The position numbers were made by a program, and so were the translations under genes. The notes beneath the pieces are model-generated. The model was not told the origin of the DNA and did no database searches. It saw only the letters and a list, made by a program, of their open reading frames with translations. A stretch of DNA of 64,000 nt from the human T2T-CHM13v2.0 reference genome, Homo sapiens. Location of the stretch: NCBI RefSeq assembly GCF_009914755.1, contig NC_060927.1; one strand, 5' to 3'. This document shows, one piece after another, positions 53,750-58,941 of this stretch (positions are counted from its first letter, which is position 1; every line of letters starts with the position of its first letter).

Positions 53750-54042
53750 TAAGATTCCTCAACATTCAACTTTTTCCTGTGTAAAGAAAACTAGATTTCT
53801 TCCCAAATTTGTTTCAGAAAATTGTCCCTTTAGTTCCTCATTACATGGACATTTCCATGTAAAAATAGCACACATAGCACAATATGCAGTGACTGGACAC
53901 AAAGCCACACATAGAAATGTGGCCAAGTACAGCTGAGGTTATTCAGAGAGATGAAAGAATGAAAGAATGACAGGGTCAAGATAATAACATTCAAATGAAT
54001 GAAAGAATGAGAAGCCAGTAAGTCAGGAGGTGATTCTAACTA

Positions 54043-54575
54043 AGGATAAAGAAAATATGGTACTTATTTACAATGGAGTGCTATGCAGCCATAAAAAAGA
54101 ATAAGAGCCTGTTATTTGCAGCAACATGGATGAAACTGGAGGTCATTATGCAAAGTGAAATTAGCCAGGCAAAGAAAGACAAACATCGCATGGTGTCACT
54201 TATTTGTGGGATCTAAAAATCAAAACAATTGAACTCATGGTGATAGAGAGTAGAGGGATAGTCACCCGAGGCGGGGAAGCATAGTGGGAGCTGAGGTTAT
54301 GGGGGTGGTTAATGTGTACAAAAAAAATAGAATGAATGAGACCTAGTATTTGATAGCACAACAGTGTGATGATAGCTAATAATATAATTGTACATTTAAA
54401 AATAACTAAGAGTATAATCAATTGTAACATAAACAACAAATTCTTGAGGGGATAGACACTCCATTTTATGCGATGTCATTATTATCCATTGTATGCCTAT
54501 ACCAAAATATCTCAGGCACTCCATAAATATGTACTCCTACTATGTACCCACAAACATTAAAATAAAACATTTAGA
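54043..54575 (+). mobile_element. L1MA 3' end fragment
   Basis: Same 3' UTR type as 10400-10945 (tttgtgggatctaaaaatcaaaacaattg). Confidence 0.88.
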
Positions 54576-54895
54576 AAGAGAAAATGTAGTGGTGATTGCA
54601 CAATATTTTGAATGTACTAAATGCTGCTGAGTTGTTCACTTTCCTTTGGTTAATTTTGTGTTTTACAAATTTTGCCTCGATAATTACTTGTTCCGAGTAA
54701 CAACTGTAGCCCATAATTTACTAGCATTGTTGTTCTGTAATTGTTTTATAAATGTTTGCACGACATGTGCCTGCTACGTAAATTCCTGCTCTTCTCCTGG
54801 CCCAGGTTAGCTCTTATTTCTCCAGCTGAGCTGCCCCGCTTCCGAGACTCACACACCTTTCACCTGCCTGCCCCACCACACAGAGCCTCCCTCAC

Positions 54896-54998
54896 CTGAG
54901 CTCCTCAGCTTGTGTCGACTTCTCTGCCAGCTTCTCCTCCTTGAACTGCATCTTCTCCCCCAGCTGAGATTCTGTGATGCCTTTGTGCTCCTCACACT
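54896..54998 (-). pseudogene. NBPF coiled-coil exon 2 (103 bp, intact)
   Basis: ttcttag|AGTGTG...CTCAG|gtgag. Peptide CEEHKGITESQLGEKMQFKEEKLAEKSTQAEELR. Confidence 0.9.
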
Positions 54999-55743
54999 CT
55001 AAGAAAAGACACACCTGTCTCGGTGGGAGGTTGGACATGCTGCTGCGGTCGTTGCCTACAGGGGAGTGAGAGGTGACAGCGTGCTGGCAGTCCTCACAGC
55101 CCTCGCTCGCTCTCTGCGCCTCCTCTGCCTGGGCTCCCACTTTGAGGGCACTTGAGGAGCCCTTCAGCCCACCGCTGCACTGTGGGAGCCCCTTTCTGGG
55201 CTGGCCAAGGCCGGAGCCGGCTCCCTCAGCTTGCAGGGAGGTGTGGAGGGAGAGGCGCGAGCGGGAACCGGGTCTGTGCGCGGCGCTTGCGGGCCAGCTG
55301 GAGTTCCGGGTGGGCGTGGGCTTGGCGGGCCCCGCACTCGGAGCGGCCGGCCGGCCCTGCCGACCCCGGGCAATGAGGGGCTTAGCATCCCGGCCAGCGG
55401 CTGCGGAGGGTGTACTGGGTCCCCCAGCAGTGCTAGCCCACCAGCGCTGAGCTCGATTTCTCGCCGGGCCTTAGCTGCCTTCCCGCGGGGCAGGGCTCGG
55501 GACCTGCAGCCCGCCATGCCTGAGCCTCCCACCCCCTCCTTGGGCTCCTGTGCGGCCCAAGCCTCCCCGATGAGCGCCGCCCCCTGCTCCAGGGCGCCCG
55601 GTCCCATCGACCACCCAAGGGCTGAGGAGTGCGGGCGCAGGGCGCGGGACTGGCAGGCAGCTCCATCTGCAGCCCTGGTGCGGGATCCACTGGGTGAAGC
55701 CAGGTGGGCTCCTGAGTCTGGTGGGGGCCTGGAGAACCTTTAT

Positions 55744-56007
55744 GGCGGCGCGTCTGGAGTTGTTCGTTCCTCCCGGTGGGTTCGTGGTCTCGCTGGCCTC
55801 AGGATTAAAGCTGCAGACCTTCGCGGTGAGTGTTACAGCTCACAAAGGCAGTGTGGACCCAAAGAGTGAGCAGCAGCAAGATTTATTGCAAAGAGTGAAA
55901 GAACAAAGCTTCCACAGTGTGGAAGGGGACCCGAGTGGGTTGCCACTGCTAGCTCAGGCAGCCTGCTTTTATTCTCTTATCTGGCCCCACCCACATCCTG
56001 CTGATTG
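55744..56007 (-). promoter_or_regulatory. Inverted copy of the LTR12C core promoter/R/U5 segment
   Basis: Reverse complement of 56450-56712 with ~12 differences. Carries a GT box (55984-55992), GATA site (55977-55982), AATAAAA TATA-like box (55967-55973) and poly(A) signal (55882-55887) on the minus strand. Confidence 0.85.
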
Positions 56008-56495
56008 TCCACACTCTGTATCTAGCTAATCTGGTGGGGATGTGGAGAACCTTTGTGTCTAGCTCAAGGTTTGTAAACATACCAATCAGCACCCTGTGAC
56101 TAGCTCAGGGTTTGTGAATGCACCAATCGACACTCTGTATCTAGCTACTCTGGTGGGGCCTTGGAGAACCTTTATGTCTAGTTCAAGGATTGTAAATACA
56201 CCAATCGGCACTCTGTATCTAGCTCAAGGTTTGTAAACACACCAATCAGCACCCTGTGTCTAGCTCAGGGTTTGTGAATGCACCAATCGACACTCTGTAT
56301 CTAGCTACTCTGGTGGGGACTTGTAGAACCTTTGTGTCCACACTCTGTATCTAGCTAATCTGGTGGGGACGTGGAGAACCTTTGTGTCTAGCTCAGGGAT
56401 TGTAAACACACCAATCAGCACCCTGTCAAAACAGACCACTCGGCTCTACCAATCAGCAGGATGCGGCTAGGGCCAGATAAGAGAATAAAGCAGGC
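56008..56495 (+). promoter_or_regulatory. LTR12C U3 enhancer repeats and native core promoter
   Basis: Seven CCAAT (NF-Y) boxes near 56082, 56123, 56201, 56242, 56283, 56411 and 56449, in tandem ~40-bp subunits with GATA motifs. AGATAAGAGAATAAAG at about 56475-56490. Confidence 0.85.
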
Positions 56496-58422
56496 TGCCC
56501 GAGCTAGCAGTGGCAACCCACTCGGGTCCCCTTCCACACTGTGGAAGCTTTGTTCTTTCACTCTTTGCAATAAATCTTGCTGCTGCTCACTCTTTGGGTC
56601 CACACTGCCTTTGTGAGCTGTAACACTCACCACGAAGGTTTGCAGCTTCACTCCTGAAGCCAGCGACACCACGAACCCACCGGGAGGAACGAACAACTCC
56701 AGACGTGCCGCCTTAAGAGCTGTAACACTCACCGCGAAGGTCTGCAGCTTCACTCCTGAGCCGGCGAGACCGCGAACCCCACCAGAAGGAAGAAACTCCG
56801 AACACATCCGAACATCAGAAGGAACAAACTCCAGATGCGCCACCTTAAGAGCTGTAACACTCACCGCGAGGGTCCGAGGCTTCATTCTTGAAGTCAGTGA
56901 GACCAAGAACCCACCAATTCCGGACACAGGAGGAGTCAGGGTCCACCCCAAGGACACAAGGATCCCCAGTACCAAGCTCTCGGTGGCACTTGATGCTGTC
57001 ACTTACGGGTACCACAGTTTCTGGCAGGAGCAGCCTCCTCTTTAGGCTCCTTTAAAGCAGGTGCTCTGTGCTACCATCACTTCTCCCAGTGCAGCTGGCA
57101 CAGAGCTTTGCCTATTGGGCCTCCATATCTTTACCAACCTCCCAAATACAAGGCCGCTGATACTCCCCAATTTGTGAATGAGGAAAGAGAAACTCAAAGG
57201 CACATGAAATAACTAGAAAACATGACTCAATTGGAATGAGGCAGAGTCAGAATTCACATCCACTAAGGTGTGACTCAAAATCATGGGCCACTTTACCAAG
57301 CCTTGCAGCCTCCTGTAAAACACTAGGCTGGAACATAAAGCAGTGATTTCCTGTACAGTCAGGAAGGCCTCTAGAACTATGGGACTGGTGGTTCCCTTGT
57401 ATTGGGAATTTCAAGCACAAATACCACAGAGATTTTTAAAATCATATCTGGACACAAGTAAAATATGAGGCATAAGACCATAAGGCCCTGAAAAAAATAT
57501 GCCCAAATGCTAATAAAGTTTGTGTTAAATTAGAAATAGTAGCACAAATAACTAATAAATAGTTTTTACTCTGTGCCAAGGACTCTTCCAGGAGATTTAC
57601 AAGAACAAGTTCCGGTAATTCATTGCAGCAATTTACAGAGGTAGGAATTATTATAGGACCCTATTAACAGATAAGGAAACTGAGACAAAGAGAAGACAAA
57701 CAACTTGGATTGGAGCCCAGGAGACTAGCCCAGGGTCCCTCCTCTCCACACTGCACTGTTACCTCAGCAGAGTCTTGGGCACTCCCTTTCTTCCTCTTTA
57801 GGAATAAGAGCCTGTGCTCCAGGAAGCAGGACTTCCCTCTCATCAGGGTCGTCCCTGCTCCTGATGCTGTCACGTATGGATACCACAGGTTCTATTCAGA
57901 GCATACTCCTCATTAAGCTCCTGGAAAGCAGGGACTGTGAACTATCACCATCTTTCCCCCAGTGCGGACAGCACGGGGCTTTGCCTATTGGGCCTCAATA
58001 GACGCTTAAATTGAATAAAAGTTCATTAGTTCCAGACATTTACACCAACAGGCTAAACGTTATTTGCCTGCAGGATTTTATATGGTACAGAGAGGATCCT
58101 GGTAAAAATGGTTTAGGCTGTTACTGAGAAAAACAGGAAGTTTTGTGTCTGCATCAGGCATCAATAATTGGGATTTTAACTCTAACCCCACCCTACACTT
58201 CACTGCAAATGCGGAAACGTTGCTAAACACTTTGTGTCCAGTTTTTCAGTCCTCAGCAAAATGAGATTAAAATATCTACTTCTACCTTTCTGGGAGTAAG
58301 GGAAGGATGAAATTTATTTTGATGTAGAGAAGAGAGGAATCGGGTCTAAAGAGTGTTTAGTTTCTGAGAGAGAAGACAGTGATCACTCATCACTTTGGTG
58401 ATAGTGAACCTGCAGAACTTAC

Positions 58423-58845
<423 letters not shown>

Positions 58846-58941
58846 CTGGGGAGAAGAAACCCAACCCAAGATGGGTTAAAAACTAGTGAAATCAAACAGA
58901 TTTGACCAAGACTGAGGGATGACTATAACTGGAATTCTTAC

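What the first reader, a model, noticed from the sequence alone, without database searches (positions are those of the whole stretch)
55744..56712. LTR12C rebuilt into a divergent promoter: an inverted copy of its core promoter points into the NBPF exons
Seen: 55744-56007 is the reverse complement of 56450-56712 (~12 differences in 264 bp). It is inserted cleanly at ...cctttatg^tccacac... in U3, with 1-2 nt microhomology at the junctions. The seven-CCAAT enhancer array therefore sits between two back-to-back core promoters. The inverted copy keeps GGGTGGGGC, AGATAA and AATAAAA, while the native copy has a mutated GT box (gcggctaggg) and one A fewer. The inverted copy lacks the proximal CCAAT. 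Both copies share gagctagcag and tttgtgagc, which I recall as non-consensus, implying a local origin. Known: LTR12C elements are NF-Y/GATA-driven promoters active in testis and erythroid cells and after HDAC/DNMT inhibition. Inference: the LTR lies antisense to NBPF, but the inverted module could start NBPF-sense transcripts at about 55945, ~950 bp upstream of the intact exon-2 acceptor. That would bypass the dead exon 1.
Basis: partly seen in the sequence, partly recalled or inferred. Interest (0 to 1): 0.85.

Follow-up and report, generated by a model that had tools for sequence, protein, structure and literature searches.

The report
Solo retroviral LTR with inverted self-copy
A leftover retroviral control element inside a dead NBPF gene copy carries a flipped second copy of its own promoter; the structure is real, old and unique in this genome, but nothing seen here shows that it does anything.

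Summary
Window 55740-56007 is the reverse complement of 56450-56716, with 255 of 268 columns identical. It lies inside a solo HERV9-type LTR on the + strand (55067-56928, TG..CA ends, 4-nt target duplication GGAG). All 5 chr1 NBPF paralogue loci examined lack this LTR.

Both junctions of the inverted piece occur once in the whole assembly, even with 3 mismatches allowed. None of 37 other LTR12 loci has such a piece.

The arms share two rare variants, 0 of 29 and 3 of 29 in other copies. The pair occurs together at only two other, more distant places. The origin is therefore local.

The end branches of the arms (0.036, 0.026) equal the family median of 0.034, so the event is about as old as the LTR itself.

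The geometry and 1-2 nt junction overlaps fit one fold-back template switch of a nascent strand.

The promoter reading is untested. The inverted copy keeps the GT box and the TATA-like motif that the native copy lost. However, both copies carry a change in the start-site palindrome, and the inverted one lacks the proximal CCAAT. No published table searched lists this locus.

Most likely this is a neutral fossil. Interest is modest.

The parts
55063..55066 (.). Left copy of the 4-nt target-site duplication GGAG
   Evidence: Sequence. The paralogue loci read straight through ...CAGGGCAGGAGCCAGG..., with no LTR.
55067..56928 (+). Solo HERV9-type LTR (LTR12C-like), 1862 nt including the insert, TG...CA ends
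   Evidence: 55067-55744 and 56051-56928 align at 91-95% to other genomic LTR12 copies. 3604 first-look candidates for the 301-nt promoter piece, of which 40 were scored at 91-95%.
55067..55744 (+). GC-rich 5' extension of U3, ending in the first G-rich/CCTTTATG repeat piece; left edge of the insert
   Evidence: The review PMC11853044 section 5 describes a ~600-nt 5' extension in LTR12C/D/E.
55740..56007 (-). Inverted copy of 56450-56716 (last ~55 nt of U3, R, first part of U5). The insert proper is 55745-56007, with 1-2 nt ambiguous at each junction
   Evidence: Junctions unique in the genome.
55942..55992 (-). Core-promoter motifs of the inverted copy: GT box 55984-55992, GATA-like 55976-55982, TATA-like AATAAAAGC 55965-55973, start-site motif (changed form GCTAGCAGTGGC) 55942-55953
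   Evidence: Frequencies in 29 other copies: 24, 26 and 26 for the first three motifs; 3 for the changed start motif and 18 for the intact one.
56008..56449 (+). U3 enhancer array of ~41-nt repeats with six CCAAT boxes (a seventh at 56449-56453), five TCTGTATCTAGCT and three GTGGGGA motifs
   Evidence: (families D1-D4, D6). Motif names from PMC11853044 section 5.
56450..56716 (+). Native donor segment: proximal CCAAT, changed GT box 56463-56473, GATA-like 56475-56481, shortened TATA-like 56484-56491, start-site motif (changed form) 56503-56514, poly(A) signal region 56567-56576, first U5 repeat
56593..56891 (+). Three U5 repeat units (56593-56657, 56695-56759, 56827-56891)
   Evidence: family D5. 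U5 'B elements' described in PMC11853044 section 5.
56929..56932 (.). Right copy of the target-site duplication GGAG
54895..54998 (-). Start of the NBPF coiled-coil exon next to the LTR (acceptor AG at 55000-54999). The frame is open over this stretch
   Evidence: ORF 54892..55470 -. Paralogue loci align across it.
58586..58882 (-). Remnant of the NBPF ATG exon: I in place of the M seen in paralogues, then a T-run (Alu)
   Evidence: 10 of 11 paralogue loci have M there; L028 gave no match.

Best explanation
What it is: a solo HERV9 LTR of the LTR12C type. It entered the intron between the ATG exon and the first coiled-coil exon of the chr3 NBPF copy, in antisense orientation, after that copy had separated from the chr1 paralogues. 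It carries one private rearrangement. A 264-268-nt stretch of its own 3' U3-R-5' U5 (56450-56716) is present a second time, inverted, at the 5' edge of the enhancer repeat array (55740-56007).

How it arose (inferred): a DNA strand was being synthesised leftwards through U3. It left its template at 56008 and folded back on itself. It primed on 1-2 nt of overlap and copied itself from 56450 to 56716. It then returned to the template at 55744, again on 1-2 nt of overlap. This single fold-back template switch gives exactly the observed order and orientation. It keeps the donor and makes no target duplication.

The polymerase may have been cellular, acting after integration (my estimate about 50%). 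Or it may have been reverse transcriptase during minus-strand synthesis in the cycle that made this provirus (about 40%). The sequence cannot tell these apart.

The event is about as old as the LTR.

What it does (inferred): most likely nothing that is selected. It leaves two core-promoter copies back to back around seven CCAAT boxes. Any read-through RNA would form a 268-bp near-perfect hairpin. Both promoter copies are impaired at the start-site palindrome, and no activity is documented.
For: Structure.

LTR limits, target duplication and empty site in 5 of 5 paralogue loci; flank homologies.

Uniqueness:
- Left junction: 1 hit as a 14-mer and 1 hit as a 26-mer with up to 3 mismatches.
- Right junction: 1 hit as a 28-mer with up to 3 mismatches.
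- 0 of 37 other LTR12 loci have an inverted self-match of 60 nt or more touching the LTR. 30 had none at all; 7 had pairs lying only in the flanks.

Local origin:
- The arms share T at 56505 (3 of 29 others) and G at 56613 (0 of 29).
- Genome-wide, the G-form 24-mer has 22 places against 522 for the A form.
- Both variants together occur at 4 places: the two arms and two loci that are only 79-92% like the arms.
- The arms are sisters in the ML tree.

Age: end branches are 0.036 and 0.026 against a median of 0.034 for 39 rows. There are 8 native-only and 5 inverted-only changes.

Not an assembly artefact: the arms differ at 13 positions, and each difference is a state that is either private or the common one in other copies.

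Junction overlaps were read directly. On the left, G, or TTA-G with one mismatch. On the right, TG.

No function shown:
- Start-site motif changed in both copies.
- No Rfam family.
- No row in the supplements searched.
- NBPF21p is listed with promoter 'None' in PMC3429928 Table 2.
Against: By overall identity the arms are not closer to each other than to the best other copies. They are 95.1% identical to each other. Over the 29 other copies the range is 92.0-94.8% to the native arm and 92.4-95.1% to the inverted arm.

Support for the arms being sisters is weak: UFboot 76, SH-aLRT 0, 78% of 200 bootstrap trees. The case for local origin therefore rests on two shared rare sites and on the improbability of the alternative.

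The 29 comparison copies are the best-scoring of only 40 scored out of 3604 candidates. The sample is thus biased towards copies that resemble the native arm.

Neutrality is an inference from absence of evidence. I could see no expression data, no ape orthologues and no population data.

The inverted copy has no change in its GT box, GATA-like or TATA-like motifs, whereas the native copy has 4 of its 8 private changes within 23 nt there. That pattern would also fit a shift of promoter use to the inverted copy. My post-hoc binomial estimate for the clustering is about 0.003. For the inverted copy being spared it is about 0.4, which is not significant.
Confidence: 0.72

Rival explanations
1. One reading: the rearrangement made a working divergent promoter. 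Its inverted core, fed by the shared NF-Y/GATA repeat array, starts NBPF-sense transcripts near 55945 that reach the exon at 54998 and bypass the broken ATG exon.
For: Two core copies flank seven CCAAT boxes.

The inverted copy keeps the GT box, GATA-like and TATA-like motifs that 24, 26 and 26 of 29 other copies have, while the native copy lost two of them.

NBPF21p has no recognised NBPF promoter (PMC3429928 Table 2), and its ATG exon is broken.

The review PMC11853044 reports that some LTR12 repeats drive bidirectional transcription. It also reports that an ERV9 LTR serves as promoter of IRGM after an Alu disrupted that gene (passages).
Against: The start-site palindrome is changed in both copies. 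The inverted copy lacks the proximal CCAAT and the distal part of the -70..+6 minimal promoter. Its nearest CCAAT is about 135 nt upstream and reversed.

Only one donor-like site turned up between start and acceptor, 17 nt before the acceptor, in a crude scan.

The review states that drug-induced LTR12C transcription was mainly unidirectional.

No row for the locus in the three supplements searched. No paper among the 8 that name NBPF21P mentions an LTR in the passages I read.
Confidence: 0.15
2. The inverted repeat matters as RNA or DNA structure rather than as a promoter. Any transcript crossing 55740-56716 on either strand, such as NBPF21P pre-mRNA, folds into a 268-bp, 95% paired hairpin with a 442-nt loop. 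That is far better paired than typical inverted Alu pairs and could be a substrate for ADAR editing or dsRNA sensors. As DNA it is a potential cruciform or fragile point.
For: Fold: -672 kcal/mol, z -41, with the arms paired over their whole length in both the MFE and the centroid structure. The LTR lies inside the annotated span of NBPF21P (hub table).
Against: Transcripts from either core promoter start inside an arm and run outwards. They would carry only one arm, and both would be R-U5 sense, so only read-through RNA forms the hairpin.

No evidence that the intron is transcribed. No Rfam family. The locus has survived for about the age of the LTR without visible deletion of an arm.
Confidence: 0.1
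3. The inverted piece is not a local copy. It is the remnant of a second, independent HERV9 integration in the opposite orientation, later trimmed on both sides, or DNA captured from another LTR12 copy.
For: By overall identity the inverted arm is as close to the best unrelated copy (L037, 95.1%) as to the native arm (95.1%). Tree support for the arms as sisters is weak.
Against: The piece contains neither LTR end and has no target duplication.

Two deletions would have to restore an adjacency (CCTTTATG/TCCACAC) that exists natively in this LTR type.

The arms share two rare variants, found together at only two other, more distant places in the genome.
Confidence: 0.03
4. Assembly artefact (a chimeric or fold-back read built into the assembly).
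For: None found. Palindromic artefacts are known from some library types (recalled, not from a call).
Against: Artefactual fold-backs are exact copies. Here the arms differ at 13 of 268 positions, and each arm carries its own private changes. The spacer is 442 nt of ordinary U3 repeats.
Confidence: 0.02

Closest known systems
LTR12C / ERV9 solo LTRs (NF-Y/GATA-bound U3 repeat enhancer, TATA-like box, start site in GCCAGCAGTGGC), as reviewed in PMC11853044
   Same: TG..CA ends, 4-nt target duplication, ~680-nt GC-rich 5' part, ~41-nt U3 repeats with CCAAT, TCTGTATCTAGCT and GTGGGGA motifs, R with poly(A) signal, repeated U5 units. 91-95% identity to many genomic copies.
   Different: It carries an inverted second copy of its own core promoter-R-U5 at the other end of the repeat array. 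This was not seen in 37 other loci, and the junctions are unique in the genome. Both start-site motifs carry the T form, which 3 of 29 other copies have.
Template-switch / fold-back inverted duplications (intra-strand template switching, FoSTeS/MMBIR-type events; names recalled, no paper read here)
   Same: An inverted copy of nearby sequence is inserted a few hundred bases from its donor, and the donor is kept. There are 1-2 nt overlaps at both junctions and no target duplication.
   Different: At 264-268 nt it is long for the short template-switch mutations described in comparative genomics, and tiny next to the kilobase-to-megabase events of genomic disorders (recalled). It sits inside a retroviral LTR, so reverse transcriptase is an equally plausible polymerase.
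Bidirectional LTR promoters (the review PMC11853044 cites a bidirectional ERV promoter driving two human genes and states that some LTR12 repeats promote bidirectional transcription)
   Same: An LTR from which transcription could leave in both directions.
   Different: In the cited cases one ordinary LTR fires both ways. Here the second direction would come from a duplicated, inverted core. No transcription from this locus has been shown.
IRGM: a gene broken by an Alu and driven by an ERV9 LTR (PMC11853044, passage)
   Same: A primate gene whose 5' part was damaged by an Alu, with an ERV9 LTR nearby that could supply a start.
   Different: In IRGM the LTR lies upstream in sense orientation, and its promoter use is documented. 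Here the LTR is antisense and intronic, only the inverted fragment points the right way, and NBPF21P is annotated as a pseudogene.

Membership tests
LTR12C-type ERV9 solo LTR | Retroviral LTR ends (TG...CA) flanked by a short target-site duplication, with an empty site in related sequence | tested here: met
   TG at 55067, CA at 56927-56928, GGAG on both sides. 5 of 5 paralogue loci are uninterrupted.
LTR12C-type ERV9 solo LTR | U3 with tandem ~41-nt repeats carrying CCAAT, GATA-type and G-rich motifs; U5 with repeated units; ~600-nt 5' extension (PMC11853044 section 5) | tested here: met
   Repeat families D1-D6. Seven CCAAT, five TCTGTATCTAGCT and three GTGGGGA motifs. The 5' part aligns to other copies at 91-93%.
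LTR12C-type ERV9 solo LTR | Start-site motif GCCAGCAGTGGC with AATAAAA about 30 nt upstream | tested here: not met
   Both copies read GCTAGCAGTGGC. AATAAAA is kept only in the inverted copy; the native one is an A short. This is decay of a member, not evidence against descent: 11 of 29 other copies also lack the exact start motif.
LTR12C-type ERV9 solo LTR | Assignment to subfamily C rather than another LTR12 subfamily by a curated repeat library (Dfam/RepeatMasker) | not testable with these tools
No repeat library is on hand. High similarity to thousands of genomic copies is shown.
Fold-back template-switch inverted duplication | Inverted copy of nearby sequence with the donor retained | tested here: met
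   Donor 442 nt away.
Fold-back template-switch inverted duplication | Short microhomology at both junctions and no target-site duplication | tested here: met
   G (or TTA-G with one mismatch) on the left and TG on the right. No duplicated target bases.
Fold-back template-switch inverted duplication | The copy derives from the neighbouring sequence, not from a paralogous repeat elsewhere | tested here: met
   Two shared rare variants, whose joint occurrence elsewhere is at 2 distant loci only. The arms are sisters in the tree with weak support.
Bidirectional / divergent LTR promoter | Capped transcription starts on both strands | not testable with these tools
   No expression data are available. 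Supplements of three papers list no row for the locus.
Bidirectional / divergent LTR promoter | Complete minimal promoter (-70 to +6) in each direction | tested here: not met
   The inverted copy ends about 53-57 nt upstream of the start motif and lacks the proximal CCAAT. The palindrome is changed in both copies.
Inverted-repeat dsRNA source (as inverted Alu pairs) | Long intramolecular duplex in a transcript | tested here: inconclusive
   The duplex forms in silico. Whether any RNA spans both arms is unknown.

The most novel reading that the evidence does not exclude
A single fold-back copying event turned a one-way retroviral LTR into a hard-wired two-way promoter. The shared NF-Y/GATA repeat array would feed a native core that has since decayed and an inverted core that kept its GT box and TATA-like motif. 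The inverted core would give NBPF21P, which has lost its own promoter and ATG exon, a germline or derepression-specific start. The same repeat would make read-through RNA a near-perfect 268-bp hairpin.
Probability: 0.1. Interest if true: 0.55.

Novelty: new variant of a known kind. Interest (0 to 1): 0.3.

Why it matters
If the inverted core is active, this would be a clear natural example of promoter direction being rewired by a small structural mutation inside a retroviral LTR rather than by a new insertion. It would also give a pseudogene a new start, in the way reported for IRGM.

As it stands, the locus is a well-resolved, datable example of a long fold-back template switch with intact junctions. 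That is of some use to people who study how such rearrangements arise, by cellular replication or by reverse transcriptase. It is also a reminder that an opposite-strand LTR fragment in a repeat annotation can be a self-copy rather than a second insertion.

It touches no long-standing open question.

Tried and rejected

2. I replaced it with a 28-mer.

3. Overall identity does not show local origin. The arms are 95.1% alike, and the best other copy is 94.8-95.1%. I turned to shared rare sites and a tree.

4. The tree gives only weak support for the arms as sisters.

5. Rfam scan of 54000-58000: no family.

6. Published per-locus tables. I looked for rows by number prefixes derived from the hg19 span of NBPF21p in PMC3429928 and a recalled hg19-hg38 offset. 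I found none in:
- PMC11317136, 1 file;
- PMC10593957, 10 of 12 files, with files 7 and 8 not searched;
- PMC7641743, 1 file.
The number hits returned were other chromosomes or decimals. Stored files may be cut, and the offset is approximate, so this is a weak negative.

7. Literature searches:
- 'LTR12C' with 'inverted duplication': 0 papers.
- 'LTR12' with 'NBPF': 4 papers. I read the one passage in PMC6920530, which concerns another gene family. The other three I saw only as listings.
- 'NBPF21P': 8 papers. I read passages of two, and neither mentions an LTR.

8. Second independent integration and assembly artefact: considered and rejected (see rivals).

9. Origin as plain minus-strand strong-stop DNA: rejected. 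The piece includes about 55 nt of U3 and stops about 210 nt short of the U5 end.

10. I did not check whether the NBPF21P reading frame downstream of 54895 is intact, and I ran no Pfam scan of the exons.
Full report
**1. The observation**

Window 55740-56007 is the reverse complement of 56450-56716. The repeat finder reports it as two adjoining arm pairs (230 nt at 96% and 40 nt at 93%) split by a one-base indel. A local alignment joins them: 255 identical of 268 columns, with 12 substitutions and one indel.

As RNA, 55730-56725 folds with the arms paired end to end. The energy is -672 kcal/mol, against -329 +/- 8 for 20 shuffles (z -41). Chance is not an issue.

- The inverted copy keeps the GT box (55984-55992), the GATA-like site (55976-55982) and AATAAAAGC (55965-55973).
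- The native copy has a changed GT box (56463-56473) and is one A short in the TATA-like motif (56484-56491).
- The inverted copy begins at CAAT and so lacks the proximal CCAAT.
- Seven CCAAT boxes lie between 56082 and 56453.

**2. What surrounds it**

The repeat lies in a solo retroviral LTR on the + strand, 55067-56928. It has TG...CA ends and GGAG on both sides (55063-55066 and 56929-56932).

The flanks are NBPF sequence. They match dozens of chr1 loci at 67-80%. In all 5 paralogue loci that I aligned, the two flanks are contiguous with one copy of the target. The LTR therefore entered this chr3 copy alone.

Its parts match the published description of LTR12-type LTRs (review PMC11853044, section 5, read):
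- a GC-rich 5' extension (55067-55744);
- ~41-nt U3 repeats with CCAAT, TCTGTATCTAGCT and GTGGGGA motifs (56008-56449);
- a core promoter, R with a poly(A) signal, and repeated U5 units.

The 301-nt promoter piece has 3604 first-look candidates in the genome. The 40 that were scored are 91-95% identical. No repeat library was available to confirm it.

The LTR is antisense to NBPF21P. Upstream on the - strand, at 58586-58882, is the remnant of the ATG exon. It reads I where 10 of 11 paralogue loci read M (L028 gave no match), and it then runs into a T-run (Alu). Downstream, an exon with an AG acceptor starts at 54998. O'Bleness et al. (PMC3429928, Table 2, passage) list NBPF21p as a pseudogene with promoter 'None'.

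**3. Is the inverted piece a standard feature, a second element, or a local copy?**

Not standard. The left junction occurs once in the 3.1-Gb assembly, both as a 14-mer and as a 26-mer with up to 3 mismatches. The right junction occurs once as a 28-mer with up to 3 mismatches.

Of 37 other LTR12 loci, 30 have no inverted self-match of 60 nt or more. The 7 that do have it only in their flanks.

Local origin is not shown by identity. The arms are 95.1% alike. The 29 other copies are 92.0-94.8% like the native arm and 92.4-95.1% like the inverted arm. That sample is biased, since it comes from the best 40 of 3604 candidates.

Local origin is shown by shared rare states:
- T at 56505, found in 3 of 29 other copies, and G at 56613, found in 0 of 29.
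- Genome-wide, the G-form 24-mer has 22 places against 522 for the A form.
- The two variants occur together at four places only: the two arms, and two loci that are 79-92% like the arms.

In an ML tree of 39 rows the arms are sisters, but weakly so: UFboot 76, SH-aLRT 0, 78% of 200 bootstrap trees.

A second integration trimmed on both sides would need two deletions that recreate a native adjacency, and would have to share both rare variants by chance. I rate it at about 3%.

An assembly artefact is excluded by the 13 differences, each arm having its own private changes (8 native, 5 inverted).

**4. Age**

The end branches of the arms (0.036 and 0.026) equal the median end branch of the family sample (0.034). 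The branch they share is too short to be resolved. So the duplication is about as old as the LTR itself.

The review places the main LTR12 expansion between the split of lesser from great apes and the split of gorillas, ending about 6 million years ago.

Three of the 12 substitutions are CpG transitions (read).

One caveat applies. If the donor was the sister LTR of a still complete provirus, the divergence dates the integration and not the rearrangement.

**5. How it arose (inferred)**

Without the insert, the sequence reads CCTTTATG/TCCACAC. This adjacency occurs natively at 56335/56336 in this LTR, and at the same place in 1 of 27 other copies (L059). The other 26 continue with a CCAAT-bearing repeat. 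The event was therefore either a clean insertion or an insertion with loss of the first repeat or repeats.

The junctions share 1-2 nt with the donor (G on the left, TG on the right). There is no target duplication, and the donor is intact.

One fold-back template switch explains every feature. A strand growing leftwards through U3 leaves the template at 56008 and pairs with its own earlier part. It copies that part from 56450 to 56716 and returns to the template at 55744.

The same geometry holds for a cellular polymerase at a fork or repair site, and for reverse transcriptase during minus-strand synthesis, when the nascent DNA is single-stranded. I put these at about 50% and 40%.

Plain strong-stop DNA is excluded. 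The piece contains about 55 nt of U3 and stops about 210 nt short of the U5 end.

**6. What it does**

Nothing available here measures transcription.

For the divergent-promoter idea:
- The architecture is right: two cores back to back around the array.
- The inverted core is better preserved. It has no change in the GT box, GATA-like or TATA-like motifs, whereas the native core has 4 of its 8 private changes within 23 nt there.
- The gene lacks a promoter of its own.
- There are precedents in the review: some LTR12 repeats fire both ways, and IRGM is driven by an ERV9 LTR after Alu damage.

Against it:
- The shared T at 56505 lies in the start-site motif. Its palindrome is reported as essential for start-site use. 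Both copies carry the changed form, while 18 of 29 other copies have the intact one.
- The inverted copy stops about 53-57 nt upstream of that motif, short of the reported -70..+6 minimal promoter, and it lost the proximal CCAAT. Its nearest CCAAT is about 135 nt away and reversed.
- A crude scan found only one donor-like site before the acceptor, 17 nt from it.
- Drug-induced LTR12C transcription is described as mainly one-way.
- Three papers' supplementary tables have no row for the locus, which is a weak negative.

My estimates: about 15% that the inverted core gives detectable NBPF-sense starts in some permissive state, and about 10% for the fuller novel reading.

A separate consequence is the hairpin in any read-through RNA. 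Transcripts from either core would carry only one arm, so read-through transcription is needed, and none is shown.

**7. Comparison and novelty**

It is a member of the LTR12 family by structure and similarity, with decayed promoter motifs. The rearrangement belongs to the known class of template-switch inverted duplications.

I found no description of this locus or of such an LTR12 structure:
- 'LTR12C' with 'inverted duplication': 0 papers.
- 'LTR12' with 'NBPF': 4 papers, of which I read one passage, on an unrelated family.
- 'NBPF21P': 8 papers, with passages of two read.

I file it as a new variant of a known kind.

**8. Verdict**

The structural interpretation is supported. The functional interpretation is untested and somewhat weakened. 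Interest is 0.3. Orthologous ape sequence and stranded 5'-end data would settle the two open points.

Noticed in passing
window 58586-58882 (-) and 58417-58650: The NBPF21P ATG exon reads ...NVS-I-AESVSP... where 10 of 11 paralogue loci read ...NVS-M-VVSA.... After about 50 further codons it runs into a long T-run, the tail of an antisense Alu, so its 3' end and donor are displaced.
   Followed up: partly
window 54892-55470 (-): One reading frame is open for 192 codons from inside the antisense LTR 5' part, across the LTR edge and the intron end, into the coiled-coil exon. It has an in-frame ATG (...MSNLPP...) about 20 codons before the exon. It may well be chance in GC-rich sequence.
   Followed up: no
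window 56464-56486: Four of the eight changes private to the native arm lie within 23 nt: three within 6 nt of the GT box, plus the lost A of the TATA-like motif. The three GT-box changes may be one complex mutation. The clustering is post hoc, at roughly p 0.003 by my binomial estimate.
   Followed up: partly
window 54300-54575: About 275 nt just left of the NBPF-homologous flank match unrelated loci on many chromosomes at ~80% and have no match in the NBPF paralogues. This is probably an Alu-sized repeat private to this copy.
   Followed up: no
L059 (G000:C6:142803184-142806485): It is the only one of 27 other LTR12 copies in which the 5' part is followed directly by TCCACA...TCTGTATCTAGC, as in this LTR without its insert. 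It is not otherwise close, at 92.5-93.3% to the arms.
   Followed up: partly
window 55798-55841 vs 56717-56760: The U5 repeat in the inverted arm matches the second native U5 repeat (95%) slightly better than its true counterpart, the first one. The first native repeat has since taken a CpG transition and a C-to-T change. This shows the inverted arm keeps older states there.
   Followed up: yes
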